NCBI GenBank assembly: GCA_041649575.1
Contig: JBAZMW010000001.1
Span: 23,944 to 87,943, forward strand
Reading direction: 5' to 3'
Origin: Patescibacteria group bacterium
GTDB taxonomy: Bacteria; Patescibacteriota; Patescibacteriia; 2-01-FULL-39-33
Length of the DNA: 64,000 nt
Shown: in pieces, positions 20,624 through 43,500 of the stretch
Numbering within the stretch: position 1 is the first letter of the stretch
Layout of the letters: each line of letters begins with the position of its first letter
Position numbers and translations under genes: made by a program
The notes under the pieces: model-generated
What the model was told of the DNA's origin: nothing
Database searches by the model: none
What the model saw: only the letters and a program-made list of their open reading frames with translations

Positions 20624-23600
20624 ATGAATCCAGGAGAAGGAACAAAAAAGATAACGAAAAATCTATTTAACAAGGTGATAGTGGTTGGTTTTTTGTTAAG
20701 TTTTTTTATTCCAGCTTTGGTTATAGCGCAGGAGGTTGTTCCAGGAATTAGCGGCGTTAATGTGGCGGATGTGCACGATGAAAATGCTTTTAGGGTGGCT
20801 ACGGAAGGAGGGGGAGATGCTGTGATTACTTGCAATAATTTTGTCGCTGGCGGTTTGGCAACATCCGGAGATATAGCCGCTTTAATTAAATGTATAGAAA
20901 GCGGGACTAAGGCGCAAAACAAAACGGTTGACAAGAATACCCTCAAGCAACTCAAGGCCTTGGAACAAAAGCAGCAGCGTGAAGAATTGTTCAGTAAAAT
21001 GAAGGATGAGCTGAAAAAGAGCATGGCCGGCGCTTTTAAGACCATGCTACGGCAATTTTCCAAACAATTGGCTTATGACACGGCCGTTTGGGTAGCTTCT
21101 GGCGGCAAGGGGCAACAGCCGCTGTTTATGACCGAGGGTATCGGCGCTTATTTGCGAAATCAGCTAGATAATGCCCTGGGTGTGTTTTTGGACGAACTGG
21201 GCCGCTATTATGGCGTGGATGTCTGTACGCCAAATTTCCAGATTAGAGCGCTCCTGCCCGGTTATTTGGGCAGACCACAGGTGAGTGTTCGCTGTTCTTT
21301 TACTAAAATGATCAGTAATTGGCAGAGTGCGGCCCAAAATGCCAGCTTTGCCGTGGAGTACAGAAGATTTTTGAGGCCAGGAGAAAATGATATTTCTTCG
21401 CTACTAATGATTAAAACCGGTTTGAGCAACAAACTAGACCAAGAATTAAGAGATAGCGTTTTAAATGTTTTATCGAAAGATGGCTGGAAGGATGTTAAAG
21501 ATTTTGCCGGCTGGGTTTTGACTCCGGGCACCATGGTGCGCAAGGCCACCGAAAACGCCATTGATCCCCAAAATACTTCGATAGCGGACTACACCTATAC
21601 CGATACACTCTGGGATTTTATCGAAACTTTTTTGAACACGCTGACGGGAAAACTCTTAGAAAATTTAATGACTGGCTTTTTCAGCTCCGGCGGCAATACC
21701 CAAAATTTCACTACCGGTAATTCAAGCTCCAGTTTATTTAATCCTTTGGCGCAACCGTTTAGCGAGGGCCAAGAAGGAGCACAGGAAAGATTTCTGAGTC
21801 TGGTGGAGGGAAGTTTGCAGGTGGGCGGTGTTTACGATATTTTGAACAAACTGACCCAATGCCTGGATTCCAGTAAAAGCAATTTAGGGCCGACAGACTG
21901 TGTTATTGATCAGGCCCTGGCTCAAGCCATAAGAGAAAAAAAATTAGTCAAAGATTTATCCGCGGATATTTTAAATCGTCAGTTCGCTCCCTCTATCTCG
22001 GCCAACATCAATCCGCAGACAGTTTTTACCTTAAGAAATATTGTTATCTTGAGAAAATATCGAATCGTGCCTGTTGGCTGGGAAGTCGCCGCCAAACTGG
22101 TCAATGAAAAAGCCAAACAAATTTATACTTTGCGTCAGTTGATGGAGTGTTATAACGGCTGTGATCGTTTTGGCAAAGAAGAGGATTTTTGCGGCAATCC
22201 GGCCGTGGAAGACACCAGTAGCTGGTGCCGAGGACTGGTTGATCCCAACTGGGTCTTAAAGGCGCCGGAACTATTCTGCCGGCGGGAAGGATACGGGATC
22301 GAAAGCGGCGCCATTGATTCCCAGAACAGTGTCAGTCGGGATAAATATTGCGCCGACGAACAGCAATGCATCAAAGAAGATGAAAAAGGCAATTGTTTGG
22401 CCTATGGTTATTGCACCAAAGAACGCCGGACTTGGGATTTTAATTCTTCCACCTGCGACCCGAAATTCAACACTTGCTTTAATTTTAAATCGCGAACGGG
22501 AGCTGCCAACGCTTATTTGGCCAACACCCTTGATTATAGGGATTGCGACGCTCAAGTGGCTGGTTGTCGTTGGCTGGCTACGGCTTTGAATCCGGTTAGT
22601 AATTATTGGTTGAATCTAACCTATAAAACGAACGAGCTGGGCAAACCCAAGGAAGTCTTAAAGACCTGCAATAATCCTCTGGGTTGCGAGGTGACGGGAG
22701 CCAGCGCAGCTGCCGCTGTGACTTATGGCCACAACATTAGCCCCGATGCCAAAACGATCCTTTCCCAGCCCTGCAATAAAAGCGCCGGCTGTTCTTACGA
22801 AACCAGTAAGTGCACCATTCCTAACGGTGGCGTCACTTGTTCGCCAATAAAAGCAGCTTGTGACGGCCAAAATAATATTTTGGCCGGTTATAATGGCAAT
22901 TTTGCCAAATGCGCCTCTTGGAATGCGGAAAAGTGGGAAGAGGGCTGGGGCGGCTCGGAGAATAATCACCACGCTTGCGTTACTGGTGTTGGCGTGACCG
23001 GCAGTGGCATCAAAGACGACAAGGCCCTGGCCAGCTATACCCTGGGCCAGCAGGTAAGCTCGGCCTTAAGAGACATCTCGGTTGAGCCAAATAAAAAATA
23101 CATTCTGACTTTTGAAGCCAAGAAAAGCGCTCTGGATGCTTATGGTGGAGTTACTAGGGGTTCGGTTGCTGTCAAAGTGGAGTTTACCGATACCAGCGGC
23201 AAGAAGACCGATCAAGGAGTTGTCTTGGCGGCCGATGATTTGAGCGATACTGGTTATCGGACTTTTACTATTGGCAATATCAATAACGGTAATAATGACA
23301 AGTTTACCATCAAAGTGACGACCAACGCCGGTTCTTATGGCAGTTTCTATTTTGATGAATTTATTTTGCGGGAGGTGACGGAGAACTGTTTTGAGACCAA
23401 CCTGGTTTTGACTAATGGCGTTCAAACGGAAGACGACAGCAACAAGGAAATTTATTTTGACCGCGACATTCAGTCTTGCGACGCCAAAGACGAGGGCTGT
23501 AGCCAATTTATTCGCACCAAGGCCGGGTTGGGCAGCAACTTAATACCCAACAGCGGTTTTGAGATTGATGCTGGTGGCGATAATAAACCGGATGGCTGGG

Positions 23601-26600: not shown

Positions 26601-29600
26601 GCTCCGGCAATGTCGCCACCCAGCTAGTTTGCGATAATGAAATTTGGTCGCCGGATAAGAGTTTGGATGTGTCTGGCTCTAGTAAATTAATTTTAAACAG
26701 AGACAACGTCGGCGGCGATAAGCAGGTTAGCGGTAGATTTTATCTGGAAAGTACCGGCGCCGGCCAGGCCAGAGTCAATTGTCGCATTTACGATCCTGGT
26801 TTTGACGGCGAAGAGATCGAAGTGGTTAAGGCCGGGGTTTATTATCAATTGGCCAAAGCGGTCAATCGCGCCGCCTGCAACGGTTTGGTGGATATAGATA
26901 GCGGTTGCGTTTTGTTCAATGAGAGAGGAGAGATGAATTACTCCAAGCAGGGCGTGGAGAGAGTCCGCGATTATCTTGACTTTGACGCCGATGAAACTTT
27001 CAATTTGCAAATCAAAGCTGCCAGTAAAAATCCACAGCCGCCATTTTCAGCGATTTTGCCAGGCCAAAAAAATTCTAATTCGATCATTAAAGTGTCGCCA
27101 GACAGGGAATGCAGCGGCTGGCTGTTTTGCACCACTTACGAAAAAGCCAATCCCGAAGATACGGATTTGGCCTTTGGCAGTCAGGATAAGTGTTTGGAAA
27201 TAGGCCTCTGCAGTCGCTTTGATAGCAAGGGAAATTGTTTGAAATATTCGCTGGGCAAAAAAGAAGCCCTGTCTACCAGCACCCCCGATTTTCAAAACTT
27301 AACGGGATACTCCATCAGCGGTTATTACCCGACAGATCTGATGGAACAAATCGGCAATGCGGCCAACTTGCCCAATGGTAATTTTGAATCAACTTACTCG
27401 GGAACCAAAGAACCTCTTGGCTGGTATATCGGCGGCAGTCATTATGATTCGGACAACATCAAACAGCCAGGACAAGTCAGCGGCTGGGGCGATTATCGTT
27501 TTAGCATCGAACGGGATTCTGCCAATCGTAGGGAAGGCTCTGGTTATTTAAAATTAAACGGAGCCTATGAGGCCGAATCGGAACTGGTAGATGTTTTCCC
27601 CAATGTTGATTACACTATTTCGGCCTGGGTAAACACGCTTAACCTGCAGCCCACTTCGACGCAAGCGGAAATTCTGGTCAGGGAGCTAAACGCCAGTGGC
27701 AATACTATAAAAAATTCCAACTGCTCGGCCGTGGCCGGCTGTTATGAAGTCAAAATCAATGGCATCTCCTGGTCTTTGTATGGCGGACTGAAATTAAAAG
27801 CCGGCCAGCCCTGGCTTAGAGTCAACCAGCGGATAAAAACTATGCCGGAAACTTCAAGATTGCAAATTAAACTGTTAAATTTTCTTAGTAGCCAGGATTA
27901 TGTAAATTGTCGCGACCAGAACGCAGCCACCTATTGCAAAACGGGGGGCTACACTTTCTTTGACGATTTACAGATAAACGCCGCCCTGAAAGTTAATGAC
28001 AAAGAGAACATAAAAAGAGACTGTCGCGCTTATCCCGAGCAGGATTCATTGGCCTGTCGGTATTTCAAAGATAATCAGTTTTTTTATGGCTGGTCCGGCT
28101 ACTGCCTGACTTATGATCCGCTAAACTCTCGTTCCTGTCTGCAGTGGTGGCCGGTCGACAATATAAAAGGGGAAGTGGAGGACGAGGTTTCCGGTTATGA
28201 CAACAGAGTTCCTTTGTATTATTGTCTGTTAACCGAATTTGAAAGAGAATTGAAAGAAGTAAGTACCGATGTGATACAGGTTCAGGAAGCGGTCGGCGGC
28301 GCTATGCCGGTTGCCTCTCAGGCCCAAGGAGTGGCGGGAACAATTTTGGATTTTTTAGAATTCATTCTTAATATTGTGGGCGATGTCTTTCTGGGCGGAA
28401 CTAATAGCGGAACAATCATAACCGACCTGATAGCCGGCGGCTTGCAGACTTTTGCCGGCATTGATGTCGGGTCGAGCGGCTCTTCGTCTTCAAAATCGAA
28501 TATGCCTCAATGCGAAAGACTAAGCTTTGAGGATTTGAAATTCGATCCGACCACAAAAAGCTTGAATTCCTGGGTTGCCAGTATCACCGGGAATAATTCC
28601 AGAAACGTCGATGCCAAGTATCTGAAGCCGATAAGTTTGTATAATGTAGTCTATATCACCCTGGATACCGGCTATGGCGGCGGCGGCGGCGTGGAATGCG
28701 AAGATCAGGGCGGGCATAATTTACAAAAAGTAAAATACACGGAAAATTTTATTCTTAGAGGTCTGTATAAATTGGTTGTCGGCGGTACTAGCAGTATAAC
28801 TACCGAAGATTATGGTTATGTTTCTCCTGGCGATGGTACGGCCGGCCTGGATTATAGCGACAAGACTTATTGCGCGGGTTTTGTGACCTTTTTTGACAAA
28901 GACGAGAACGGTCATCGCAAAGGAGAAATAAAAAACATGATAGCCTGCGCTCAGGATACAGGGGAGTACACCCATCAGGACACCTTTAACTTTAAGTTTA
29001 AGATAGGCTACATGACAGACAAGCAGGGCCCGGCTTGCCAAATATTGGCTCAAGTGGTGACTCCGATGGGCAATAACAAGGCTTGGAGCAGAAGGGTGGC
29101 CAAGGGCAGTATTTTCACTATGCCTGGTCTTGGCACTTCGTATAATTCCGATTATCCTCCTTATGGCGCGGTGGTGCCGCCGGAGCCGGCGCATTATCCC
29201 GAGGTTTGGGATACCGACTTAACTCAAAAAGATAAGCAAAAATTATATCATTCCGCGCCGGAACTGGAAAGCCAAAAGCCCTATCAGGCCAGGGCGGGAG
29301 AAGTGTTTAGTTGCGTCAATTATGTCAATGATTTGCCAGGTTATGATGGAACAATGGGAGCGTTAAGAAGTATTTTTGGAGTCGCTTCCAGCTGGGCTTA
29401 TAAGGTGCCTTGTTTTGAGGGCTGCCTGAAAGGCATCAGAACCGACAATGCCTGGCAGGGACTAACTTCCATAACCCAGTCGGTGCTGTGTGTTTGGAGA
29501 CATTGCACCAACGCCTGCAATTTCATCGGCCGTTGCAGTCAGTCGGGCAGTGTTTGTGTCAACTACAACGGCTTTGGCGATGATATTTTGGGTATTGATT

Positions 29601-32257: not shown

Positions 32258-35200
32258 ATGACAGTCAGAAGAAAAAAATTGATTTTAATTATAACAGTCG
32301 TCTTGTTTTTGGCTGGAATTTTTTTGTTGAGCAGTAATATTTCTTTTGCCCAGGAAACCAACTCCGACTCCAATATTAATGGCAATATCAGTTCGGATTC
32401 CGATGTCGAAGCCGACACCAACATTAATGCGGATTACAACCCCAAGCCAGCCGAGAATGCCGGCGCACCAGCCAATGACGGCAAGATTGCCGGGTTCATT
32501 AATTGGATTTTGTATTACGTGGCTTCGTTTTTTGGCTGGCTGGTGGGGCTGATAGTCAATGTTTTGGTTAATAAGGTGGTGGTTTTTAATGATTTTTTGA
32601 ATGTCCGGCTGGTCAAGGAGGGCTGGCGCATTGTGCGCGACATCTGTAATAATTTTTTTATCGTCATCTTGCTGGTGATCGCCGTGGGCACTATTTTGCG
32701 GGTACCCAACTATCAATACAAACAATTGTTGCCAAAACTTTTGATAATGGCGGTGCTGATTAATTTTTCCAAGATGATTACCGGCGTCCTCATAGATTTT
32801 TTTCAGATTATTATGGTGTTTTTCGGCGGAGCCCTGGTAAAAGAAAATGCCGCCGGAGTGATTTTGGCCAGTGTGGGGTTGTATAAGCTATATTTATTGG
32901 GACAAAACCCAGGGGGACAAATTCTTGGGAACGAGAATTTGCAGGATTGGGATATTACTATCGCTCTGTTTTTTGCCATTGTAATCTCCATTGTCGCCTG
33001 CGTGGCGATAGGAGTGACTATGATCATTCTGGTCTATCGTATTGTAATGTTGTGGATTCTGGTGATTTTGTCGCCGGCCGCTTATTTTCTTTCTTCCTTT
33101 CCCAAAGGCCAGCAGTATGCCGGCATGTGGTGGAGCCAATTCGCCAGCAACCTGGTAGTCGGGCCGGTGCTGCTGTTTTTTCTGTATTTGTCCTTTTTCA
33201 GCGGTTACCGCGATGTCGGCGGCGTAGAAAACACTCGGGGAGGGACGGTTACTATCCCTAGTTCTGCTACTACCCCAGAAGAGCTTAAAAAAAGCGCTAA
33301 AGAAGCTAGGACTGATACTGGCCAAAAAGGTTATATAACCGGTTCTACAAATTCACTCATGGCCACGGATCAAGGATTTTTTGATTATTTAATTATTATT
33401 GCCCTGATGATTGCCGGTCTGGCCGTAGCGCAAAAAGCCGGCGCCGCCGGCGGACAATGGGCGGGCAAGGGCGTGGCCAGTTTGCAAAAATGGGGGAAGA
33501 GAGCAGCCAAGCTGCCTTTAGGTGCAGCCAAGTATACAGCCAAGGAGACTGGCCGAAAAGTCGCTGGAATTCTAAGTTATGAGACAAAAAGTGGCAAACG
33601 ACTCCCTTTTATTGGTCAATGGGCTGGTGATATAAAAACTAAGATGGAAGATGATATTGTAAAACGGCGTACTGCTATAATGAAAAAAATAGGCATGGGG
33701 GACAAGACAAAAGAATGGATAGCCGGCAAGAAGGAGGATTTCAAAAAGGCAAGATACCAAGTTTCTGGTAGGCTTGTTCAAGCGCCAGTTGGGGCCGCTG
33801 TGCATGGCGCCGGTGGAGCTGCTTTGGGAGCTACTATTGGAGGAGTTGCCGGAGGAGTTATTGGTATAATGACAGCCAATCCTCTATTAGCCTTGGGTGG
33901 GGCCAAGGCTGGTGCTTGGATAGGCGGTGCTATGGGAGGATTTGGCGGTATATTAGGAGGCTTAGGAAAAAAACCTTTACAATTTACGGTTAAGGCTGCT
34001 GAATTAGACACGAAGACGGTAAAAAATGCAAAGAGAAAGGCCGATGCCTTGAATGATACCACCGTGCCAGTTGGTGGCACGGATGAAAGTGGTCTAATTG
34101 AGGCCAGAAGTTCATGGAAAAATACCGGGGCGTATATTGGAGCTGGCGGTATTTTATCTAAGGAAAATAAAAAGATGCTTGATAATATAAATGACGACGG
34201 TCTAGCGCATTTATCGCAAGCCATAGATGCTGAAATAGACCCAACTAAGAAAAGTGATTTAAAGGAAGCTTTTACCAAAATGTTGGCTGCTTATAAAAAA
34301 GGCGGCGGATCTAATCTTAGTACCATACAGTCATTTCTCGGTGGCGGAAGGAATGTTTTGGGTATAAGCGAAACAGCTCATATGGATCCTTTAATAGCAG
34401 CTAATAAGGTAGACGTTGCTTCCCGTCGTACCGGTACCGAGAAGTTCAGAGAACAACGCGGTGACTTAAAGGTAGCTCGGTTTAGTCATCTTAAAGATAA
34501 CACAGAGGCTGGTGTTGATTTCAGGGATTTGTTTGAAGGCAATTCAGAGCTTCTAAGTCAAATCAAGGCGCAACAACCGGATTTTGACATCAGTCAAAGC
34601 GGTATTCATATCGAAGGCAAGGAAATGACGCAAAAAGTCTCACAAGCCATGGCTGTCTTGATAGACAAAGAATTGGCCAGTCTTTCTCATAACAGCGCTA
34701 TTGCTTCGACCGGTCAGAAGGAGCAAATAGGCAGAAGAATGGGAACGCTAAGAACGGCCAGAGAGCAACTAACGTCTGGCAGATTGCAGCAGTTGCAATT
34801 ATGGAATAGCGGCCTGGAGAATGAGACCGGCGAAGCGGCAACTACCATTTTCCATGAAAGGATTCATAAAGCAGGTGTTAAGAGCGAAGTTAAGGCCGAG
34901 GAAGGGGCGCGGTTTATTAGGGAAAGGCATTTAGCGGGTTTGCACGAAGAGATCGCCAGGGAAATGGTAGCCATGGAAGGCGAAAGGGGTGGAGATGATT
35001 ACACTATGGACGAGGTGATGGCCAGAGTCAAAGAAAAGCATGGCACCAAGGATAAAGTGAAAAGATTAATTGCCAGAGAACAAGAAGCGGGAGTCGCTCC
35101 GGGCAAGACTGGCGCTAAAGAGCCCAAGCCAACCAAAACTATTACCGAAGCCCCCGAGCTGGAAAGAGCAATACAAGAGCTGACCGAGGCTTTAACCAAA

Positions 35201-35449
35201 ACTAGCAGAAGCGAGGCAGGCGGTGTCGGGCCGGGCGGCGCTTTGCAGCCTGATTTGCAAAGAGAAGCGGCTGCCAACGCCAATTTTTTCAGGTTGCTGC
35301 AAAGCTTGAGAGAAATCGAAAAAGGCGTAGCTGGCTTGGGGGACAAAGAAGCAAAAGATGCTGTCGGCGTGGTGGTCGGGCTGGGGTCAGATCCAGTGCC
35401 TTTGGACGCCCAAGTGACGGCCGAGACTGTTAAAAATTCTTTAAGTTAA
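32258..35449 (+). CDS. VirB6/TrbL-like polytopic membrane protein with long Gly-zipper and coiled-coil C-terminal region
   Basis: Signal peptide, then 7 or more TM helices in the first ~370 aa. The 'GWRIVRDICNNFFIVILLV' region resembles the TrbL/VirB6 core. This is followed by Gly-zipper segments (GAAVHGAGGAALGATIGGVAGGVIGI…) and a charged C-terminal domain. Confidence 0.5.
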   Translation: MTVRRKKLILIITVVLFLAGIFLLSSNISFAQETNSDSNINGNISSDSDVEADTNINADYNPKPAENAGAPANDGKIAGFINWILYYVASFFGWLVGLIVNVLVNKVVVFNDFLNVRLVKEGWRIVRDICNNFFIVILLVIAVGTILRVPNYQYKQLLPKLLIMAVLINFSKMITGVLIDFFQIIMVFFGGALVKENAAGVILASVGLYKLYLLGQNPGGQILGNENLQDWDITIALFFAIVISIVACVAIGVTMIILVYRIVMLWILVILSPAAYFLSSFPKGQQYAGMWWSQFASNLVVGPVLLFFLYLSFFSGYRDVGGVENTRGGTVTIPSSATTPEELKKSAKEARTDTGQKGYITGSTNSLMATDQGFFDYLIIIALMIAGLAVAQKAGAAGGQWAGKGVASLQKWGKRAAKLPLGAAKYTAKETGRKVAGILSYETKSGKRLPFIGQWAGDIKTKMEDDIVKRRTAIMKKIGMGDKTKEWIAGKKEDFKKARYQVSGRLVQAPVGAAVHGAGGAALGATIGGVAGGVIGIMTANPLLALGGAKAGAWIGGAMGGFGGILGGLGKKPLQFTVKAAELDTKTVKNAKRKADALNDTTVPVGGTDESGLIEARSSWKNTGAYIGAGGILSKENKKMLDNINDDGLAHLSQAIDAEIDPTKKSDLKEAFTKMLAAYKKGGGSNLSTIQSFLGGGRNVLGISETAHMDPLIAANKVDVASRRTGTEKFREQRGDLKVARFSHLKDNTEAGVDFRDLFEGNSELLSQIKAQQPDFDISQSGIHIEGKEMTQKVSQAMAVLIDKELASLSHNSAIASTGQKEQIGRRMGTLRTAREQLTSGRLQQLQLWNSGLENETGEAATTIFHERIHKAGVKSEVKAEEGARFIRERHLAGLHEEIAREMVAMEGERGGDDYTMDEVMARVKEKHGTKDKVKRLIAREQEAGVAPGKTGAKEPKPTKTITEAPELERAIQELTEALTKTSRSEAGGVGPGGALQPDLQREAAANANFFRLLQSLREIEKGVAGLGDKEAKDAVGVVVGLGSDPVPLDAQVTAETVKNSLS

Positions 35450-35452: not shown

Positions 35453-36388
35453 ATGGCTAATAATTACATTGCCGAATGTTTGACAAAATTTAGAGCCCTG
35501 CCTCGAGAAATCCAGGAGGCGGTGGGCGGTTTTGAGGCCTTGAAAACCATTCAGGGCCTGGAAGAGACCCATAGAATCAAGCTGGGGCTGATGGTCATTT
35601 TAGTGGCGATTGGCGAATTAAAAATGGAGGAAATAGAGGATTATCTGATGGAAAAGTATAATTTTGGAAAATGGGAAGCGCAGGAGATCAATGAGATTTT
35701 ACAGCAAAGCATTTTTGAACCGGCTCTTGAAGTTGCTTTGGCAACAATGCCTTTAGCCGGCCAGTCTGGACGAGATTTAAGTTTGCCCGAGCAGAAGAAA
35801 ATTTTGACTGATTTATTCAGAGAAAGACTAAAAGAGGTCTTAACCGGCGATGGTGAGCTGGTTCAAGAAGTAAACGATATGATTTTTGATATTTTGGGTC
35901 GGGAAATGGGCGACGAGAATAAAATGTTTGAAAAAGATTTGGAAAAAATTCTCTATCTCAACCAAGAAAAATTGACCAGTCAGAGCATTAATATCGACGG
36001 CCGGCCTCTCGAGCCCACGGTGGCTAATTGGCTTAGGGATTTTATTAATAGAAACGGCACTGCATTTTTTTCCAACCTGGTTTTGTCGCAATATCTGGCC
36101 AACTCGGAAAACGGCAACCGTTTGAATCAAGGAGAAAAGATGCTTCTGGGCAAATTGTTGGTTTTGTATCGCAATTTAAAATTTTTTCCAGACAACCTGA
36201 CTAATTTGCCCCGAAACCAATGGGAGATCATTCCCATTAGCCGCCATAAGTCCGAGCCAATAGCTTCGGCTGGCGCTGCCGCTGGCGGCAGCAGAGCTGT
36301 GCCCCAAGAAGAGCCCTCTCCGGCTTGGCAGGGGCTGTCGGCGATAGAAAAGAAAGCTTTAATGGAAGAGGAAAGTTCCAGAAAATAG
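35453..36388 (+). CDS. hypothetical protein, paralog A (shares N-terminal ~80-aa domain with next gene)
   Basis: N-terminus 'F.ALP.EIQEAV.GFEALKTIQGLEETHRIKLGLMVILVAIGELK' aligns with the N-terminus of ORF 36417. There are no TM segments. Confidence 0.45.
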   Translation: MANNYIAECLTKFRALPREIQEAVGGFEALKTIQGLEETHRIKLGLMVILVAIGELKMEEIEDYLMEKYNFGKWEAQEINEILQQSIFEPALEVALATMPLAGQSGRDLSLPEQKKILTDLFRERLKEVLTGDGELVQEVNDMIFDILGREMGDENKMFEKDLEKILYLNQEKLTSQSINIDGRPLEPTVANWLRDFINRNGTAFFSNLVLSQYLANSENGNRLNQGEKMLLGKLLVLYRNLKFFPDNLTNLPRNQWEIIPISRHKSEPIASAGAAAGGSRAVPQEEPSPAWQGLSAIEKKALMEEESSRK

Positions 36389-36416: not shown

Positions 36417-37886
36417 ATGGATTCTAGTTTACAAAAATTCAATCAGTTGCCGGTTTTCGTCAAAGAAAAATTGTCAGCGCTAGCCGTTTTGAAGGCGGTG
36501 GAAGAATTGGAAAAAAAATACCGGATAAAACTGGCTTTATCGCTTATAAAAATGGCGGTGGGCGATTTGACCATAGCCGATTTTAGCAGTTATTTGACTA
36601 ATGTTTCAAAACTAGAGGCCGGTTCGGTCAGAGAAATTAGCCAAAAATTCAAAGAATTTTTGGCTGAAGCGGGGTTAAGAGTCAGCGAAGTTGAAAGGGA
36701 AGCCGCTCTTGGCCGGCCAGCCAGGGAAGCAGTGTTTGCTTTTTCCACTGAGGACGAACATGAGGTTGATAATTTCAGACAATTGGCCGATAGCGGAGAA
36801 AAAATTCACGATCATGATTATTTGGCCGGCGTAGTTATATCGCGGTTTGGCTTTTTGGAAACCGATGAAGTCATAAAAAAAAGATTGCATAATATCGTGA
36901 CAGCCCGGTTAAGAGATATAAGAGACGATTTGGAAACCCTGGAGAGTCTGCAAAAAAGTCGTAAAATCGGAGGTTTGGGTTTTACCGAGGAACAGAGCCG
37001 TCGCCTGCTGGGCTTGATAAAAAATGGCATAAGTGGCCAATGGCCGAAAAATTCGCCAAACGTCAAAGAGCCGGAGACTTCGGGGCGTGAACCCAGTGCT
37101 TCAGTGGCGGCTTCGTCAAAAGCGGAATTAGAAAAAAAAGTTTTGACTTTGCAAGAAAAGAAAAAGCAGGAAGAGACTTCGGTCGGTGCCGGAGACTATC
37201 CGAAGGTCAGAGATTCTTTGGCCGCCAAAGCGCTGGATTTATTGACGGATAAACGGCCAATCTCTCAAAGAGGGGGCAGGCCGCGAATTGAAGAAGAAGA
37301 CGGATTGCCGGTGGTAGTTTTGCCGGAGGAAGAGGAATTAATGATTAAGCCGCTAGTGATTGATTTACAAAAAAAACCTCGAGGCAAGGTAGAAATTAAA
37401 GAGCCGCAGTTACCGCCAAAAGCGTCGGAAAATATCAAAGCTTTCAGACCGCTGGGGCCTCAACCCAGCCCCTTTGCCAGTCCGCGGCCGGTGGTTAAAA
37501 AGGTTTTTAAAACCAGTCTTAGCAGTCGGCCGAATTTGGACGATGTAAAATTTGCTCCCAAGTTGATGGGGCCGGTAGAAGAGCTGGAGAGCATGACTCT
37601 CATTGATTTTCGTCGTTTAGGCCAGGAGCCGAAAGAAATCGCTCGCAAAATCAAAGAAAAAATCGATTTGCTAGAAAACGAATCTTATAGCAAAAAACTT
37701 GAAGGAGTCGAGGCCTGGCAGAAAAACGAGGTCAACAGGTTTTATCGTCTTTTGGGTCAGGCCAGTCTGGCGGCGGGGCAGGGCATTGAAGAGATAATCA
37801 GCGAGCGGCTGGCCAGCGGCAAGCCGACTCTGACTGTCGAGGAATTCGAATCGGTGATGGAGCTTAACAAAGATTTGCGTTTCTAA
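36417..37886 (+). CDS. hypothetical protein, paralog B
   Basis: N-terminus 'FNQLPVFVKEKLSALAVLKAVEELEKKYRIKLALSLIKMAVGDL' is paralogous to ORF 35453. The rest is charged, P-rich and disordered. Confidence 0.45.
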   Translation: MDSSLQKFNQLPVFVKEKLSALAVLKAVEELEKKYRIKLALSLIKMAVGDLTIADFSSYLTNVSKLEAGSVREISQKFKEFLAEAGLRVSEVEREAALGRPAREAVFAFSTEDEHEVDNFRQLADSGEKIHDHDYLAGVVISRFGFLETDEVIKKRLHNIVTARLRDIRDDLETLESLQKSRKIGGLGFTEEQSRRLLGLIKNGISGQWPKNSPNVKEPETSGREPSASVAASSKAELEKKVLTLQEKKKQEETSVGAGDYPKVRDSLAAKALDLLTDKRPISQRGGRPRIEEEDGLPVVVLPEEEELMIKPLVIDLQKKPRGKVEIKEPQLPPKASENIKAFRPLGPQPSPFASPRPVVKKVFKTSLSSRPNLDDVKFAPKLMGPVEELESMTLIDFRRLGQEPKEIARKIKEKIDLLENESYSKKLEGVEAWQKNEVNRFYRLLGQASLAAGQGIEEIISERLASGKPTLTVEEFESVMELNKDLRF

Positions 37887-37919: not shown

Positions 37920-38366
37920 ATGGAACAAATAGTAGTACCACAATTTTTAGACGTCGAAGACAAGATTATCGGTCCGATAACCGTGCGTCAGTTTATCGAA
38001 ATGATGATTGGCGGTTTGCTTTGCTTCATCTTTTATAAACTGTTTGATTTTTCACTTTTTGCTGTGGCTTCGCTCTTGGTGATTCTGGTCACTCTGGTCA
38101 TCGCTTTTGTCAAAATAAACGGCCAACCCTTTCATTATTTTTTGTTGAATTTTTTTGGCACCGTCAAAAATCCCAAATTGAAAGTTTGGCGCAAAGACGT
38201 GACGCTGGCCGATATCAGGGCGCTAGAGGCCAAACAGCCGGTGACCAAGCCGCCAACGGTGGCGGGAACAAGGCAGATACTCACCACTTCCAAAATATCG
38301 GAGCTGTCTTTGATTGTTGATACCGGCGGTGTCTATCGCGGCGAGGAAAAGCTAGCTATTAAATAA
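37920..38366 (+). CDS. PrgI-family (VirB3-like) small membrane protein
   Basis: 'VPQFLDVEDKIIGPITVRQFIEMMIGGLLCFIFY' matches the PrgI-family N-terminal motif (VP.d..vkdkiffGLT.RQf). It is followed by two TM helices. It sits immediately upstream of the VirB4-family ATPase, as in Gram-positive T4SS operons. Confidence 0.55.
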   Translation: MEQIVVPQFLDVEDKIIGPITVRQFIEMMIGGLLCFIFYKLFDFSLFAVASLLVILVTLVIAFVKINGQPFHYFLLNFFGTVKNPKLKVWRKDVTLADIRALEAKQPVTKPPTVAGTRQILTTSKISELSLIVDTGGVYRGEEKLAIK

Positions 38367-38379: not shown

Positions 38380-39063
38380 ATGGCTTCAAGAGTAGCTAAT
38401 AAAAAAACCCCAGCCACCCAAAGGCATCTACATATTGTAGAAGTCAGAGACGATTGCGTGGTAATGAAAGACGGCAGCTTAAGAGCCGTACTGCTGGTGT
38501 CGAGTATAAATTTTGCCCTGAAGTCAGAGGACGAGCAAAATGCCATCGTGGCCGGTTATATGTCGTTTTTGAACTCTTTGGATTTTCCAATTCAGATGGT
38601 GGTGCAGTCCCGGCAACTTGATTTGGATGAATATCTGGCGGAAATAAAAAATGCCGAAGACAACCAGACCAATGAGCTGCTAAAGTTGCAAACAGCGGAA
38701 TATCGCCAATATATCACGGAACTGGTTTCGCTGGGCGATATTATGACCAAAAGATTTTTTGTGATCATACCTTATGACCCTCTGTCCAACAAAAAACGGA
38801 CTTTTTGGCAGAGAACGACCGACGTTTTGTCGCCAACCAGCATTATTAATTTGAAAGAGAAGCAATTTATCAAACGAAGAGAGGATTTGTTGTTGAGGAT
38901 CGACAAGGTGATTTCCGGATTGTCCAGTATGGGACTAAGAGCGTCGCTATTAAATACCCAGTCACTAATAGAGTTGTACTACAGCACCTACAATCCGACG
39001 ATTTCCAGAAGCGAGAAAATGGTTGATACTAATAAATTAAGAATCGAAGAAAATTTTTTATAA
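38380..39063 (+). CDS. VirB4-family N-terminal region (separated from the ATPase ORF by a single in-frame TAA)
   Basis: 'DGSLRAVLLVSSINFALKSEDEQNAIVAGYMSFLNSLDFPIQMVVQS' resembles the extreme N-terminal segment of Gram-positive VirB4/TraE/PrgJ homologues. It is in the same reading frame as ORF 39067; the stop at 39061-63 is followed by the ATG at 39067. Confidence 0.5.
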   Translation: MASRVANKKTPATQRHLHIVEVRDDCVVMKDGSLRAVLLVSSINFALKSEDEQNAIVAGYMSFLNSLDFPIQMVVQSRQLDLDEYLAEIKNAEDNQTNELLKLQTAEYRQYITELVSLGDIMTKRFFVIIPYDPLSNKKRTFWQRTTDVLSPTSIINLKEKQFIKRREDLLLRIDKVISGLSSMGLRASLLNTQSLIELYYSTYNPTISRSEKMVDTNKLRIEENFL

Positions 39064-39066
39064 AAT

Positions 39067-40971
39067 ATGTTTGACCCGAAAGACTTAGACAAAAAAAACG
39101 ATTTAATTACTCCAACTGTCGAACCGGAGATAAAATTAAGTGCGGAGCAGTTAAACCGGCAAGAAGCGCAGGAGCTGGGAAAAACCAAAGAAAGCCTGGA
39201 AGAAGAGATTGTCTATCGCCGCGGGGCGATGACCATTCGTGACTTGGTGGCGCCGGCGGCTTTGGAGGTGGAAAGCTCTTTTGTCAGATTGGGCGAATAC
39301 TATGTCACGACGATTTTTGTCGTGCAGCTGCCGCGCTATATTAATGTTGGCTGGTTTGCGCCGGTGATAAACCTGGATATTACCGCCGATATGGCGCTGT
39401 ATTTTTACCCGGTTAAATCAGCGGTTATTTTGAAGCAATTAAAAAAGAAAGTCGGTAATGTCGAGGCGGGACTGATCGCCGACGCGGAAAAAGGCGCTCC
39501 GCGCGATCCTTTAAGGGAGACGGCTTTAAGGGATATGGAAAGACTGCGCGACGAACTGACCCAAGGCACGGAACATTTCTTTCAGACCGGCACTTATATA
39601 ACAATTTACGCCAAGAGTTTGGAAGAGCTCGACAAAATCACGGAACGGGTGGAAAACATTTTTGGCTCAACCCTGGTTTTTTCCAAACGGGTTTTTTATC
39701 AAGCCGAACAGGGGTTCAACTCAACCATGCCTTTTGCTTTCGATGAATTGCAGGTTTTGGTAAATATCAACACTTCGCCGGCCGCCAGCTCTTTTCCTTT
39801 TGTTTCTTCGGATTTGACTTCCGATCGCGGCGTGCTTTTTGGCATTAATCGCCACAACAATAGCTTGATTTTATTCGATCGGTTTTCTTTGCAGAATGCC
39901 AACATGGTGGTGTTTGCCACCTCTGGCGCTGGCAAATCCTACGCCATCAAGCTGGAGGTTTTGCGCAGTTTGATGTTTGGCACCGACATTATTATTATCG
40001 ACCCGGAAAGAGAATACAGTCACTTATGCGATGCGGTGGGCGGGACTTATATTGACATTTCTTTGAACTCGGAAAGCAAGATTAATCCTTTCGATTTGCC
40101 TCGGGCGATTGGCGAGGACGCGAGGCCAGCCGATATTATCAGGAGCGCAGTGATTACGGTAAAAGGATTAATTAGATTAATGATCGGCGACATTGACACC
40201 GAGGAAGACTCCATCATTGACCGAGCGCTGCTGGAAACTTATGCCAAGAAAGACATCACTCCCGATGTTGATTTGACACAAATTGAGCCGCCGATTTTGT
40301 CGGACTTACAGGAAGTTTTGGAAGGCATGGAGGGAGCGGAAAAAATCTCGATCCGGTTAAAGAAATATACGGAAGGCACTTTCGCCGGCTTGTTGAACAA
40401 TCCAACCAACGTGGAAACCAATAATCAACTGGTGGTTTTCAGCGTCCGTGATTTGGAAGACGAATTAAAGCCCATGGCTATCTATACGATTATCAATTAT
40501 ATTTGGAATATCGTCAGAAGCCAGATGAAGAAAAGGATTATGATTGTCGACGAGGCCTGGTGGCTGATGCAGCGCGAGGATAGCGCCAAGTTTATTTTTG
40601 CTCTGGTAAAACGGTGCCGTAAATATTACCTGGGCGTGACCACCATTACCCAAGATGTTAACGATTTTTTGACTTCTCCTTACGGTCAGGCAATTGTCAA
40701 TAATTGTTCGCTGCAGCTGTTAATGAAGCAGACGCCGGCAGCCATTAATTTGGTGCAAAAAACCTTCATGTTGACCGAAGGAGAAAAATATTTGCTTTTG
40801 GAGTGTGGCGTGGGCGAGGGTATATTTTTTGCCGGCGCCAAGCACGCTGCCATAAAAACGGTCGCTTCCTATTCCGAAGATCAATTAATAACCTCTGATC
40901 CGCGCCAGCTGCTAGAAATCGAACAAGCCAAAAAGGAATTTGAGGAATCACTTGCTGCCGGGCAAGTCTAG
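39067..40971 (+). CDS. VirB4/TraC/PrgJ-family type IV secretion ATPase
   Basis: Walker A is 'VVFATSGAGKSYAIK', the Walker B-like motif is 'IMIVDEAWWLMQ', and there is the typical 'YYVTTIFVVQLPRYINVGWFAPVINLDITADMALYFYPV' N-domain. Confidence 0.75.
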   Translation: MFDPKDLDKKNDLITPTVEPEIKLSAEQLNRQEAQELGKTKESLEEEIVYRRGAMTIRDLVAPAALEVESSFVRLGEYYVTTIFVVQLPRYINVGWFAPVINLDITADMALYFYPVKSAVILKQLKKKVGNVEAGLIADAEKGAPRDPLRETALRDMERLRDELTQGTEHFFQTGTYITIYAKSLEELDKITERVENIFGSTLVFSKRVFYQAEQGFNSTMPFAFDELQVLVNINTSPAASSFPFVSSDLTSDRGVLFGINRHNNSLILFDRFSLQNANMVVFATSGAGKSYAIKLEVLRSLMFGTDIIIIDPEREYSHLCDAVGGTYIDISLNSESKINPFDLPRAIGEDARPADIIRSAVITVKGLIRLMIGDIDTEEDSIIDRALLETYAKKDITPDVDLTQIEPPILSDLQEVLEGMEGAEKISIRLKKYTEGTFAGLLNNPTNVETNNQLVVFSVRDLEDELKPMAIYTIINYIWNIVRSQMKKRIMIVDEAWWLMQREDSAKFIFALVKRCRKYYLGVTTITQDVNDFLTSPYGQAIVNNCSLQLLMKQTPAAINLVQKTFMLTEGEKYLLLECGVGEGIFFAGAKHAAIKTVASYSEDQLITSDPRQLLEIEQAKKEFEESLAAGQV

Positions 40972-40998: not shown

Positions 40999-41568
40999 AT
41001 GGACAACAAAAGAAGAATAGTCATAGTCGTTTTGGCAATAGTAGTGTTGATAATTCTAGTGATAATCTGTTGGTGGATTTTGAAAAATAATTTTGGTCGC
41101 CAGGGCACAGTCAACTTGAATACCAATGTTAACAGGCCGTTGACCGAGAGAATCCAACAATTGCCGCCGCCGACCGCCGAAGAAATAGCCGAGGAAAAAA
41201 AATACCCCCTAGGCATGAAGCAACTGGCCTATTCTTTTGCCGAAAGATTTGGTAGCTATTCCAACTTGACAGTCAACAAAAATCTAAACGACTTGAGAGG
41301 TCTGATGACCGTTAAGATGCAAGCAGAAACCGATAAAGTGATTGACCAGACCTTTACGGCGCCAGCCAGTTATGATGGTTATGATACCAGGGCCTTAGAG
41401 AGCGAACTTTTGTATCTAAAAGACAATGAAGCCAGTATTTTAATTAAAACGCAAAGATCTCACTATTTAGAAAAGGAAAGTCAGCCAGAAGTTTATTATC
41501 AAAATTTACAGCTTAAAATGGTAAAAGTGGGCGAAGAATGGAAGATTGACGAGGCCAAGTGGCAGTAG
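40999..41568 (+). CDS. bitopic membrane protein, possibly VirB8-like (N-terminal TM plus ~140-aa periplasmic/extracellular domain)
   Basis: The single TM is 'IVIVVLAIVVLIILVIICWWIL' and the soluble domain is of NTF2-like size. The position directly after VirB4 matches PrgL/VirB8 placement. The call rests on topology only. Confidence 0.3.
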   Translation: MDNKRRIVIVVLAIVVLIILVIICWWILKNNFGRQGTVNLNTNVNRPLTERIQQLPPPTAEEIAEEKKYPLGMKQLAYSFAERFGSYSNLTVNKNLNDLRGLMTVKMQAETDKVIDQTFTAPASYDGYDTRALESELLYLKDNEASILIKTQRSHYLEKESQPEVYYQNLQLKMVKVGEEWKIDEAKWQ

Positions 41569-41598: not shown

Positions 41599-42273
41599 AT
41601 GTTTGAAGATATTGGGCAGATAAAGGGTTGGCTGGAGGATTTGTTGTTTCCCAAGAGTTGTGTTAATTGCCGACAGGAGAAGAGCTGGCTTTGCGGTGAA
41701 TGTACAAAATTATTAAAGGCCGTTGCGATGAATTTGGGCTCTCATGTTTTTGACAGCGGTAATCATTTAGAAAAATTATGGGCTTTGACCGATTATAACG
41801 ATCTGCTGGCGCAAAAAGTGATTCAGGCCATTAAATATAATTTTATTAAAGAGTTGGTTTGTAGCTTCGACAGTCTGATTGTGGAAATGGAAAAGATAAT
41901 ACCCGCCTGGTCTAGGGAATTCGTTTTATTGCCGGTTCCTCTGCACCAGAAACGTCTCTCCTATCGAGGATTTAATCAAGCGGAATTAATCAGCGAGAGA
42001 ATAAGCCGGCTACTAGGCAACCCTTTAGGCGACAAAATTTTAAAGAGAAAAATTTATACCAGGCCACAGGTTGGTCTAAGCCAAGCGAAGCGCCGGGAAA
42101 ATATCAAAGGAAGTTTTTTATTGGATAATAAAGTCGAGTGGCGCTTCCCTAGAAATAATGTGGTTTTGATTGACGATGTCTACACGACCGGAGCGACAAT
42201 GGGGGAGTGTGCCGAAGTTTTACAAAAGGCAGGATTTACAAACATCAAAGGACTGGTAATAGCTCATGGTTGA
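41599..42273 (+). CDS. comFC: ComF family protein (ComFC-type phosphoribosyltransferase-domain competence protein)
   Basis: N-terminal Zn-finger 'CVNCRQEKSWLCGECTKLL' and C-terminal PRTase motif 'VVLIDDVYTTGATMGECAEVL'. Confidence 0.7.
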   Translation: MFEDIGQIKGWLEDLLFPKSCVNCRQEKSWLCGECTKLLKAVAMNLGSHVFDSGNHLEKLWALTDYNDLLAQKVIQAIKYNFIKELVCSFDSLIVEMEKIIPAWSREFVLLPVPLHQKRLSYRGFNQAELISERISRLLGNPLGDKILKRKIYTRPQVGLSQAKRRENIKGSFLLDNKVEWRFPRNNVVLIDDVYTTGATMGECAEVLQKAGFTNIKGLVIAHG

Positions 42274-42447: not shown

Positions 42448-42539
42448 GGAGAGATGGCTGAGTGGCTGAAAGCGGCGGTTTGCTAAACCGTTATACGTCC
42501 TTTTCGGGCGTATCGAGGGTTCGAATCCCTCTCTCTCCG
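42448..42539 (+). tRNA. tRNA-Ser (anticodon GCU)
   Basis: Acceptor GGAGAGA/TCTCTCC, anticodon loop TTGCTAA, long variable arm, T-loop GTTCGAATC. It folds as a canonical cloverleaf. Confidence 0.85.
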
Positions 42540-42776: not shown

Positions 42777-42863
42777 GGAGAGGTGGCAGAGTGGTCTAAT
42801 GCACCGGTCTTGAAAACCGGAGTCCCTTTACGGGGACCGTGGGTTCGAATCCCACCTTCTCCG
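42777..42863 (+). tRNA. tRNA-Ser (anticodon UGA)
   Basis: Acceptor GGAGAGG…CTTCTCC, anticodon loop CTTGAAA, long variable arm, T-loop GTTCGAATC. Confidence 0.85.
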
Positions 42864-42893
42864 TTTGGCAATAAATTTATAAAATTAGAAAAT

Positions 42894-43406
42894 ATGCCAG
42901 AAACATCAGAAAAACAATTAAGCGAGGTGGTTTTTTCCTGGCGGCATCCGGAATATATTAGGTATCGGAAAAATATTTGGTGGTATGTGATCTCTCTGAT
43001 CGTTCTAATATTATTATCCATTTGGGCCATCGCCCAAGGCAATTGGTTTGGCGATCAGAACTATTTATTTGTAGTTTTTTTGGTTCTTTTTTATCTGGTG
43101 GTTTTAATTTACGAATTCCGTCAGCCGGAAGAAGTCGATTTTATTATCACTCCGGATGGCGTCAAATCTGGCCGGCGTTTTTATTATTATAAAGACATTG
43201 ACAATTTTTTTGTTATTTATCAGGAACAGGGCATAAAAAATTTATATTTAGATTTTGTCAATCCGCTCCGCGGCAGATTAGTAGTGCCGCTAGACGGCCA
43301 AGACGCAGTGGCAATCAGAGAATTTTTACTGGGTTTTTTAAAAGAGGATTTAGACAGAGAAGTCGAGCCCTTGTCGGAAAGATTTCGTCGCTGGTTGAAG
43401 TTGTAA
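42894..43406 (+). CDS. hypothetical membrane protein
   Basis: The ORF track starts at 42783 inside the tRNA, which I reject. The ATG at 42894 (MPETSEKQLSEVVF…) gives a 170-aa protein with two TM helices. Confidence 0.45.
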   Translation: MPETSEKQLSEVVFSWRHPEYIRYRKNIWWYVISLIVLILLSIWAIAQGNWFGDQNYLFVVFLVLFYLVVLIYEFRQPEEVDFIITPDGVKSGRRFYYYKDIDNFFVIYQEQGIKNLYLDFVNPLRGRLVVPLDGQDAVAIREFLLGFLKEDLDREVEPLSERFRRWLKL

Positions 43407-43426: not shown

Positions 43427-43500
43427 GTGCCCGTAGCTTAGCTGGATAAAGCGTCGGCTTGCGGAGCCGGAGATCAGAGGTTCAAATCCTCTCGGGCACG
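43427..43500 (+). tRNA. tRNA-Arg (anticodon read as GCG)
   Basis: Acceptor GTGCCCG/CGGGCAC, D-arm GCTT/AAGC, anticodon stem TCGGC/GCCGG with loop TTGCGGA, T-loop GTTCAAATC. It is 74 nt. Confidence 0.75.

What the first reader, a model, noticed from the sequence alone, without database searches (positions are those of the whole stretch)
38380..40971. VirB4-family ATPase divided by a single in-frame TAA
ORF 38380-39063 and ORF 39067-40971 are in the same frame. They are separated only by TAA-AAT-ATG. The first ORF resembles the extreme N-terminal region of Gram-positive VirB4/PrgJ homologues and the second carries the remaining N-domain plus the ATPase. There are three options. It could be a genuine two-chain VirB4. 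It could be programmed stop-codon readthrough or recoding. Or it could be recent pseudogenisation or a sequencing error. No SD precedes either ATG.
Basis: seen in the sequence. Interest (0 to 1): 0.6.

Follow-up and report, generated by a model that had tools for sequence, protein, structure and literature searches.

The report
Conserved two-gene VirB4 (TrsD plus ATPase)
The "interrupted" secretion ATPase is really two separate genes, a small TrsD-like N-terminal module followed by the VirB4 motor, an arrangement found throughout Patescibacteria and already published, so the shared reading frame is a coincidence.

Summary
ORF1 (38380-39063, 227 aa) ends in TAA. One codon (AAT) follows, then ORF2 (39067-40971, 634 aa) starts in the same frame. 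ORF1 matches the extreme N-terminus of monoderm VirB4 proteins and the standalone TrsD/TraD family. ORF2 matches the rest of VirB4.

The stop is neither a lesion nor a recoding site. All of the 120 closest ORF1 homologues are standalone proteins of 212-253 aa. In 77 of 77 species-representative loci where it could be checked, the ORF1 homologue ends in its own stop and VirB4 follows. The relative frame looks random (25/31/21) and the spacer runs from -157 to +511 nt. Two other assemblies give identical DNA at the junction.

Natural fused forms are rare (2 of 150 representatives), and both ORFs align on them in order without overlap. The same split occurs on Firmicutes megaplasmids.

The missing Shine-Dalgarno (SD) sequence is normal here: only 6 of 40 genes have one. 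Stop-NNN-ATG junctions also join unrelated genes in this window.

Quiñonero-Coronel et al. 2025 (PMC12102498) already report TrsD homologues beside virB4 across Patescibacteria. The finding is ordinary and already known.

The parts
37920..38366 (+). PrgI/VirB3-like small membrane protein (148 aa), first gene of the conserved PrgI-TrsD-VirB4 triplet
   Evidence: Pfam PF12666 PrgI E 1.3e-8, 35.7 bits (cutoff 27), and TcpE 7.6e-5. Two hydrophobic segments at residues 20-57. A homologue lies just upstream of the ORF1 homologue in 80 of 80 related loci.
38380..39063 (+). ORF1: TrsD/TraD-like ('TraC-like', PF26593) protein of 227 aa, a standalone homologue of the extreme N-terminal part of VirB4
   Evidence: NCBIfam hits: VirB4_plasma positions 104-233 of 894 (E 3.5e-11), TrsD/TraD NF041427 positions 20-143 of 201 (E 2.3e-8), CD1110-family VirB4 positions 18-105 of 752. 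Precomputed Pfam gives PF26593 TraC-like for the identical protein. There are 7,294 homologues, and the best 120 are all 212-253 aa. ORF1 aligns to residues 7-223 of the fused 898-aa P0260. In the fold search, the top 14 PDB hits are all TrwK/VirB4 of R388. No hydrophobic segment was found.
39061..39069 (+). Junction TAA-AAT-ATG: ORF1 stop, a 3-nt spacer, ORF2 start. Probably a site of translational coupling.
   Evidence: Sequence read. Identical in two other assemblies. In 77 related loci the spacer has a median of 12 nt and is 10 nt or less, or overlapping, in 36; all three relative frames occur.
39067..40971 (+). ORF2: VirB4-type T4SS ATPase (634 aa) that lacks the extreme N-terminal segment
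   Evidence: NCBIfam conju_CD1110 E 8e-101, 338.5 bits (cutoff 325), covering profile positions 183-729 of 752. VirB4_plasma positions 292-884 of 894. Pfam P-loop_TraG, AAA_10 and DUF87. PDB 4AG5 (VirB4 C-terminal domain) E 1.3e-48 over residues 249-609, and TrwK at 3e-8. Start codon supported: tblastn matches in close relatives begin at residue 1, at an ATG-TTT.
39916..39939 (+). Walker A motif ATSGAGKS (ORF2 residues 284-291)
   Evidence: Read from the translation and the alignment. Conserved in P0260 (AKSGSGKS) and P0258 (GKAGSGKS).
40537..40554 (+). Walker B motif IMIVDE (ORF2 residues 491-496)
   Evidence: Pattern scan. Conserved as LTIDE and LVVDE in the fused homologues.
36417..37886 (+). 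Conserved 489-aa protein of unknown family upstream of the PrgI-like gene; a likely cluster member
   Evidence: A homologue is upstream on the same strand in 75 of 80 related loci. No Pfam or NCBIfam hit.
40999..41568 (+). 189-aa protein with one N-terminal hydrophobic segment, directly downstream of VirB4; a likely cluster member
   Evidence: A homologue is downstream in 60 of 80 loci. Hydrophobic segment at residues 1-19. No significant family hit.

Best explanation
These are two real genes of a chromosomal Patescibacteria type IV secretion cluster, in the order PrgI/VirB3-like, TrsD-like, VirB4. Here the VirB4 of other systems is made as two polypeptides. ORF1 (TrsD/TraD-like, 227 aa, soluble) is the homologue of the first ~200 residues of the VirB4 N-terminal domain. 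ORF2 (634 aa) carries the rest of the N-domain and the Walker A/B ATPase.

Shown: the homology, the collinearity with fused forms, the conservation of the split across species, and the random relative frame.

Inferred: the two chains assemble non-covalently into a VirB4-like unit. By analogy with the R388 structure, where the VirB4 N-domain contacts VirB3, ORF1 would be the part that docks the motor onto the PrgI/VirB3-like membrane protein encoded just upstream.

Also inferred: the 3-nt TAA-AAT-ATG junction, in a genome that rarely uses SD sequences, lets ribosomes that terminate on ORF1 restart on ORF2 (translational coupling). That would link the output of the two chains. The shared frame has no function.
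For: (1) ORF1 and ORF2 map to consecutive, non-overlapping parts of full-length VirB4 profiles: CD1110 family 18-105 then 183-729 of 752, and VirB4_plasma 104-233 then 292-884 of 894.
(2) They also map consecutively onto natural fused proteins. On P0260 (898 aa), ORF1 covers 7-223 and ORF2 covers 313-890. On P0258 (797 aa), ORF1 covers 7-211 and ORF2 covers 217-796.
(3) ORF1 matches the standalone TrsD/TraD family and carries Pfam PF26593 TraC-like.
(4) The ORF1 structure model (pLDDT 68.6) finds only TrwK/VirB4 chains as its top 14 PDB matches, with E from 1.4e-3, probability 0.91-1.00 and TMq 0.33-0.40; then there is a gap to noise.
(5) The split is conserved. The best 120 of 7,294 homologues are 212-253 aa. 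Of the top 150 representatives at 50% clustering, 148 are not fused. In 77 of 77 evaluable species-representative loci the ORF1 homologue has its own stop (54 TAA, 12 TAG, 11 TGA) followed by VirB4. PrgI lies upstream in 80 of 80.
(6) ORF1 is under constraint: 57 invariant columns and 72% mean column identity among 24 sequences that are 60-71% identical to it.
(7) Spacers are short (median 12 nt; 36 of 77 are 10 nt or less, or overlap), which fits translational coupling. SD-like motifs precede only 6 of 40 genes.
(8) The same split occurs in Firmicutes: Pontibacillus has an 11-nt overlap between the genes, and C. perfringens pJFP838A has PrgI, then the TrsD-like gene, then a DUF87 ATPase.
(9) Literature: PMC12102498 reports 2,272 TrsD homologues in Patescibacteria, 1,664 of them next to virB4. 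It describes TrsD as remotely homologous to the VirB4 N-terminus and as essential in Ca. Southlakia epibionticum ML1.
Against: No experiment or complex prediction here shows that ORF1 binds ORF2 or the PrgI-like protein; that step rests on analogy. [quoted passage not shown] The NCBIfam TrsD score (34.1 bits) is far below that model's curated cutoff of 200. The structural match to TrwK is modest (TMq 0.40, rmsd 6-8 Å), and the tool does not say which TrwK residues align. Translational coupling is inferred only from spacing. About a third of related loci have spacers over 30 nt (26 of 77), so coupling cannot be universal.
Confidence: 0.9

Rival explanations
1. Programmed stop-codon readthrough or recoding at TAA 39061-39063 produces a single ~862-aa VirB4, as the main product or as a regulated minor one.
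For: In this window the two ORFs share a frame and are separated by one stop plus one codon. Natural fused proteins with the same architecture exist (P0258, P0260), so a fused product would probably fold.
Against: Across 77 related species the ORF2 frame relative to ORF1 is 25 same, 31 +1 and 21 +2, which is indistinguishable from random. Only 11 loci have the same frame with a single stop. Others have 2-7 in-frame stops, overlaps, or spacers up to 511 nt. All three stop codons are used. TAA is the normal, commonest stop in this window (28 of 40). Same-frame stop-NNN-ATG junctions also join unrelated genes here. ORF2 has its own ATG, conserved at residue 1 in close relatives. I did not scan for any known readthrough-promoting signal.
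Confidence: 0.03
2. Recent pseudogenisation, or a sequencing or assembly error, introduced a stop into a once-continuous VirB4 gene.
For: The in-frame layout looks superficially like a nonsense mutation. The source is a metagenome-assembled genome.
Against: The stop lies at the same place as the natural end of thousands of standalone homologues of 212-253 aa, at 36-71% identity. Every one of 77 evaluable species has the split. ORF1 is strongly conserved. The ENA and Logan assemblies give identical sequence over 3,684 bases including the junction. The regions flanking the junction (the ORF1 tail and about the first 45 ORF2 residues) are poorly conserved terminal or linker sequence, not a disrupted domain core.
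Confidence: 0.02
3. ORF1 is an accessory T4SS protein that shares ancestry with the VirB4 N-terminus but now acts independently. It might be a regulator, chaperone or substrate adaptor rather than a structural piece of a two-chain VirB4.
For: PMC12102498 notes that TrsD homologues in Gracilibacteria are mostly not next to virB4, and that no function has been assigned. Many family representatives carry extra C-terminal sequence, reaching 300-443 aa. Spacers over 100 nt in some loci suggest separate expression.
Against: ORF2 matches VirB4 profiles only from about position 183 of 752, so it lacks exactly the segment ORF1 supplies. Fused natural forms join the two with almost no linker: residues 211 to 217 in P0258. 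In that fused protein the Pfam TraC_F_IV N-domain profile runs across the junction (residues 169-394; 27.2 bits against a cutoff of 28.1). Adjacency held in 77 of 77 loci of this clade.
Confidence: 0.05

Closest known systems
TrsD homologues next to virB4 in Patescibacteria (Quiñonero-Coronel et al. 2025, Microb Genom, PMC12102498)
   Same: Same phylum, same gene pair and same neighbourhood (PrgI/VirB3-like, TrsD, VirB4). The window's protein is an NCBI Patescibacteria MAG protein (WC518_00255). The paper reports 2,272 TrsD homologues, 1,664 of them next to virB4. It describes TrsD as a remote homologue of the VirB4 N-terminus and notes that it is essential in Ca. Southlakia epibionticum ML1.
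   Different: Nothing substantive. The paper does not appear to discuss junction anatomy (frame, spacer) or rare fused variants; a search of its text for 'split' and 'fused' found only VirB3-VirB4 fusions.
TrsD (pGO1/pSK41) and TraD (pIP501-type) proteins, encoded upstream of the VirB4-like TrsE/TraE in Gram-positive conjugative plasmids (NCBIfam NF041427)
   Same: A small soluble protein of about 200 aa encoded between a VirB3-like gene and the VirB4-like ATPase. ORF1 matches the profile over positions 20-143 of 201 (E 2.3e-8).
   Different: The score (34.1 bits) is far below the model's curated cutoff of 200, so ORF1 is a distant relative and not a member by NCBI's criterion. The locus is chromosomal, and no relaxase gene was seen among the ORFs scanned near it. 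That those genes sit in a conjugative plasmid context is from my own knowledge and PMC12102498; I did not inspect those plasmids here.
Full-length monoderm VirB4 ATPases (CD1110 family NF045971; Mbov_0397 family NF045975; PrgJ/TcpF type)
   Same: Together ORF1 and ORF2 cover these profiles in order. ORF2 exceeds the CD1110 curated cutoff (338.5 against 325 bits). Walker A and B motifs are present.
   Different: Those proteins are single chains of 750-900 aa. Here the first ~200 residues are a separate polypeptide.
Split PrgI / TrsD-like / VirB4 clusters on Firmicutes megaplasmids (Pontibacillus sp. NZ_CP062975.1; C. perfringens pJFP838A NZ_CP013615.1)
   Same: Same three-gene order with a separate TrsD-like gene of about 275-312 aa. 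ORF1 matches at 27-28% identity over 88-97% of its length, E 5e-24 and 3e-13.
   Different: The Firmicutes proteins are longer and annotated only as 'hypothetical protein'. The junctions differ (an 11-nt overlap and a 130-nt spacer).
TrwK/VirB4 of plasmid R388 (cryo-EM 7O41, 8RTB, 8RTD)
   Same: It is the only solved fold that the ORF1 model matches. The ORF2 ATPase domain matches TrwK residues 446-740.
   Different: TrwK is a single-chain protein from a diderm system, with 12-15% identity to ORF1 and TMq of only 0.40. The role of its N-domain in binding VirB3 is from my own knowledge of the published R388 structure, not tested here.

Membership tests
TrsD/TraD family (NCBIfam NF041427) / Pfam PF26593 'TraC-like' | Match to the NCBIfam TrsD/TraD profile at or above its curated cutoff | tested here: not met
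   E 2.3e-8 but 34.1 bits against a cutoff of 200. This indicates distant homology, not membership by NCBI's rule.
TrsD/TraD family (NCBIfam NF041427) / Pfam PF26593 'TraC-like' | Match to Pfam PF26593 (TraC-like) | tested here: met
   The precomputed Pfam assignment for the identical protein (P0001, and the gene in L084/L085) and for all 120 top homologues is PF26593. The local Pfam copy returned no hit for ORF1, and none for the fused P0258 either, so it appears to lack this model.
TrsD/TraD family (NCBIfam NF041427) / Pfam PF26593 'TraC-like' | Small standalone protein encoded immediately upstream of a VirB4-type ATPase and downstream of a VirB3/PrgI-like gene | tested here: met
   Window gene order 37920-38366 (PrgI), 38380-39063, 39067-40971. 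The order is conserved in 77 of 77 loci for VirB4 and 80 of 80 for PrgI.
TrsD/TraD family (NCBIfam NF041427) / Pfam PF26593 'TraC-like' | Homology to the N-terminal part of VirB4 | tested here: met
   Profile hits to the N-terminal positions of three VirB4 models. Alignment to residues 7-223 of the fused P0260 at 37% identity, E 1e-45. Fold matches only to TrwK/VirB4. ORF1 is not a duplicate of the ORF2 N-region (hhalign probability 0.16%).
VirB4 T4SS ATPase (ORF2) | Profile match above the curated cutoff | tested here: met
   conju_CD1110: 338.5 bits against a cutoff of 325, E 8e-101.
VirB4 T4SS ATPase (ORF2) | Walker A and Walker B nucleotide-binding motifs | tested here: met
   ATSGAGKS at residues 284-291 and IMIVDE at 491-496.
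VirB4 T4SS ATPase (ORF2) | Complete N-terminal domain within the same polypeptide | tested here: not met
   ORF2 covers the CD1110 profile only from position 183 of 752, and VirB4_plasma only from 292 of 894. ORF1 encodes the missing segment.
VirB4 T4SS ATPase (ORF2) | ATPase activity and hexamer assembly with VirB3 | not testable with these tools
   Needs biochemistry or a structure of the complex.
Programmed stop-codon readthrough / recoding site | The zero-frame relationship and a single intervening stop are conserved in orthologues | tested here: not met
   Frames are 25/31/21. Only 11 of 77 loci have the same frame with a single stop.
Programmed stop-codon readthrough / recoding site | A readthrough-stimulating context or downstream RNA structure | not tested
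   I did not fold the junction. Its sequence is not conserved among relatives (junction strings).
Pseudogene (nonsense-disrupted VirB4) | Close relatives have an uninterrupted ORF, and constraint on the fragments is relaxed | tested here: not met
   All 77 relatives are split. ORF1 has 57 invariant columns in 24 sequences.

The most novel reading that the evidence does not exclude
In the minority of lineages, this one included, where TrsD and VirB4 share a frame and are separated by one stop and a few codons (11 of 77 species), rare near-cognate decoding of the stop could yield a small amount of a covalently fused VirB4. That product would resemble the natural fused variants (P0258, P0260), giving two isoforms with different stoichiometry in the machine. 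More broadly, making the VirB3-docking N-module as a separate chain might let Patescibacteria and some Firmicutes load only a subset of VirB4 subunits onto the membrane platform.
Probability: 0.04. Interest if true: 0.4.

Novelty: already known. Interest (0 to 1): 0.1.

Why it matters
There is little new here. The T4SS of Patescibacteria matters biologically: PMC12102498 and PMC12857230 both report that it is essential for epibiotic growth in the one species tested. How its motor is built is therefore of interest. But the TrsD + VirB4 gene pair is already catalogued across the phylum. What this check adds is modest. The split is not a lesion or a recoding site. The junction varies freely in frame and spacing. 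The two chains align in order and without overlap on rare natural fusions. The same split exists on Firmicutes megaplasmids. For annotation, such loci should be called as two genes (a TrsD/TraC-like protein and VirB4), not flagged as a disrupted VirB4.

Tried and rejected
(1) A local Pfam scan of ORF1 found no family. The local copy seems to lack PF26593, since even the fused P0258 showed no such hit. I relied on NCBIfam and the precomputed Pfam labels instead.
(2) A sequence-profile search of the PDB with the ORF1 family found no hit at E ≤ 1. Only the fold comparison linked it to VirB4.
(3) I tested whether ORF1 is an internal duplicate of the ORF2 N-terminal region, which looked similar by eye. 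hhalign gave probability 0.16%, so I rejected the idea.
(4) I tested whether the missing SD is special. It is not: only 6 of 40 genes have one.
(5) I tested whether the in-frame stop+1-codon junction is special. It is not: 4 of 33 junctions in the window are same-frame with short spacers, and some join unrelated genes.
(6) I looked for TrsD in Guglielmini et al. 2014 (PMC4027160). The term is absent from the main text, so the statement about remote homology is cited from PMC12102498 only.
(7) The KsgA gene at 19021 looked N-terminally truncated in my ATG-only ORF list. It actually starts at TTG 18706 and is full length.
Full report
**Observation.** The sequence is as described. ORF1 runs 38380-39063 (227 aa) and ends in TAA at 39061-39063. 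One codon (AAT) follows, and ORF2 starts at ATG 39067 in the same frame and runs to 40971 (634 aa). Neither ATG has a Shine-Dalgarno (SD) motif upstream.

**What the two ORFs are.** ORF2 is a VirB4-type ATPase.
- It scores 338.5 bits against the CD1110-family VirB4 model (cutoff 325; E 8e-101), but covers only profile positions 183-729 of 752.
- On the Mbov_0397-type VirB4 model it covers 292-884 of 894.
- It has Pfam P-loop_TraG, AAA_10 and DUF87 domains.
- It matches the solved VirB4 C-terminal domain 4AG5 (E 1.3e-48) and TrwK residues 446-740.
- It has Walker A (ATSGAGKS, residues 284-291) and Walker B (IMIVDE, 491-496) motifs.

ORF1 matches the part of those VirB4 models that ORF2 lacks: CD1110 positions 18-105 and VirB4_plasma positions 104-233. 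It also matches the standalone TrsD/TraD family (E 2.3e-8, though far below the curated cutoff). The precomputed Pfam label for the identical database protein is PF26593 'TraC-like'. An AlphaFold model of ORF1 (pLDDT 68.6) has TrwK/VirB4 chains of R388 as its top 14 PDB matches (E from 1.4e-3, TMq about 0.40); after them the scores fall to noise. ORF1 is not a duplicate of the ORF2 N-terminal region (hhalign probability 0.16%). The gene just upstream (37920-38366) is PrgI/VirB3-like, with two hydrophobic segments.

**Contiguity test.** Rare natural fused proteins exist. On P0260 (898 aa), ORF1 aligns to residues 7-223 and ORF2 to 313-890. On P0258 (797 aa), ORF1 aligns to 7-211 and ORF2 to 217-796. 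The two ORFs are therefore in order, adjacent and non-overlapping. P0258 is a real gene in the same context, with PrgI upstream, and it sits next to rnpA, yidC, dnaA and dnaN.

**Lesion, recoding site or normal gene boundary?**
- *Homologue lengths.* ORF1 has 7,294 database homologues, and the closest 120 (60-71% identity) are all 212-253 aa. In an exhaustive search of representatives clustered at 50% identity, 148 of the best 150 (36-56% identity) are standalone and only 2 are fused.
- *Related loci.* I fetched 80 species-representative genome loci. PrgI is upstream in 80 of 80. VirB4 is downstream in all 77 where the contig continues.
- *Stops, frames and spacers.* In all 77, the ORF1 homologue ends in its own stop (54 TAA, 12 TAG, 11 TGA). 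The VirB4 frame relative to ORF1 is 25 same, 31 +1 and 21 +2, so there is no enrichment of the zero frame. Spacers run from a 157-nt overlap to 511 nt, with a median of 12. Only 11 loci combine the same frame with a single stop.
- *Conclusion on recoding.* A conserved readthrough or recoding mechanism is excluded. Sharing a frame here is a 1-in-3 coincidence.
- *Constraint.* ORF1 has 57 invariant columns among 24 sequences.
- *Assembly error.* Two other assemblies (ENA and Logan) match the window exactly over 3,684 bases, junction included. They may derive from the same reads, so this rules out an assembly error more firmly than a sequencing error.

**Controls within the window.** Only 6 of 40 long ORFs have an SD-like motif, and leaders are A/T-rich. 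The missing SD is therefore a property of the genome. Ten of 33 co-directional junctions have spacers of 12 nt or less. Four are same-frame with a single stop, including FemAB|MFS and MFS|acyltransferase, which are unrelated genes. TAA is the commonest stop (28 of 40).

**Mechanism (inferred).** The VirB4 of this T4SS is made as two chains. ORF1 supplies the first part of the N-domain, which in single-chain VirB4 contacts VirB3 (my own knowledge of the R388 structure). The PrgI/VirB3-like gene is directly upstream, which fits this role. The very short spacer, in a genome that rarely uses SD sequences, suggests termination-reinitiation coupling of ORF2 to ORF1. Neither the interaction nor the coupling was tested here.

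**Comparison with what is known.** Quiñonero-Coronel et al. 2025 (PMC12102498) already report TrsD as the most abundant T4SS component in Patescibacteria: 2,272 homologues, 1,664 of them next to virB4. They describe it as remotely homologous to the VirB4 N-terminus and as essential in Ca. Southlakia epibionticum ML1, with no function assigned. The same PrgI / TrsD-like / VirB4 split is present on Firmicutes megaplasmids from Pontibacillus and C. perfringens pJFP838A.

**Verdict.** This is a genuine, ancient, conserved two-gene arrangement that is already described. The in-frame TAA has no special meaning. Interest is low.

Noticed in passing
L081 544-2937 (P0258, 797 aa); P0260 (898 aa): Rare natural fusions of the TrsD-like module and VirB4 into one ORF (2 of the top 150 representatives). 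P0258 sits between a PrgI gene and a small ORF, next to rnpA, yidC, dnaA and dnaN. I did not determine whether these are secondary fusions or the ancestral state.
   Followed up: partly
window 32258-35449 (+): A 1063-aa ORF with about 10 hydrophobic segments in its first 540 residues and no Pfam or NCBIfam hit. It lies upstream of the PrgI-TrsD-VirB4 genes and could be the VirB6-like polytopic component of the cluster.
   Followed up: partly
window 20624-32221 (+): A giant 3865-aa ORF with one N-terminal hydrophobic segment and a CBM_4_9 carbohydrate-binding domain (E 2.8e-8). It sits directly upstream of the T4SS genes and may be a surface or adhesion protein.
   Followed up: no
window 35453-36388 and 36417-37886 (+): Two adjacent ORFs (311 and 489 aa) with no family hits. 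By eye their N-terminal ~60 residues look alike (...L.A...LE..HRIKL.L......G.L...). The 489-aa protein is conserved upstream of PrgI in 75 of 80 related loci, so it is probably an uncharacterised T4SS-associated protein.
   Followed up: partly
window 41599-42273 (+): A ComF-family gene (double zinc ribbon plus phosphoribosyltransferase domain; TIGR00201 E 5.6e-32) lies two genes downstream of VirB4. A homologue occupies the same position in 44 of 80 related loci, which links a competence gene to the T4SS cluster.
   Followed up: partly
window, whole (40 long ORFs): Only 6 of 40 genes have an SD-like motif. Most starts are preceded by A/T-rich sequence such as aaattaaaaattATG, which suggests mostly SD-independent initiation in this organism.
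   Followed up: partly
window 16472/16479, 17669/17673, 35449/35453: Three more same-frame junctions separated only by a stop and one or two codons. At least two join clearly unrelated genes (FemAB|MFS, MFS|acyltransferase). This pattern will produce repeated false 'split gene' flags in this genome.
   Followed up: yes
L021 around 4660-4841: In this relative the reading frame of the TrsD homologue continues about 180 nt past the end of the homology and overlaps the VirB4 start by 157 nt. This is either an unusually long overlap or a local frameshift or assembly error.
   Followed up: no
one search hit list (e.g. P0141 443 aa, P0169 432 aa, P0146 417 aa): Many TrsD-family representatives are 300-443 aa, with the homologous region at the N-terminus. 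They carry C-terminal extensions of unknown nature that are absent from the window's protein.
   Followed up: no
loci L003, L006-L009, L011, L012 and others (records CAY.../CAZ...): Many of the related loci come from TPA assemblies titled 'uncultured Gammaproteobacteria bacterium'. They nonetheless carry this Patescibacteria-type locus at 53-70% identity. The organism names on those records look wrong or are placeholders.
   Followed up: no
window 18706-19542 (+): The KsgA/RsmA gene starts at TTG 18706 (278 aa). An ATG-only ORF call truncates it to 173 aa. PMC12102498 lists KsgA among the genes often found near virB4 in Patescibacteria.
   Followed up: yes
window 42448-42539, 42777-42863, 43427-43500 (+): Three tRNA genes lie downstream of the cluster. 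The mechanical ORF 42783-43406 overlaps the second tRNA, so its real start is probably the ATG at 42894.
   Followed up: no
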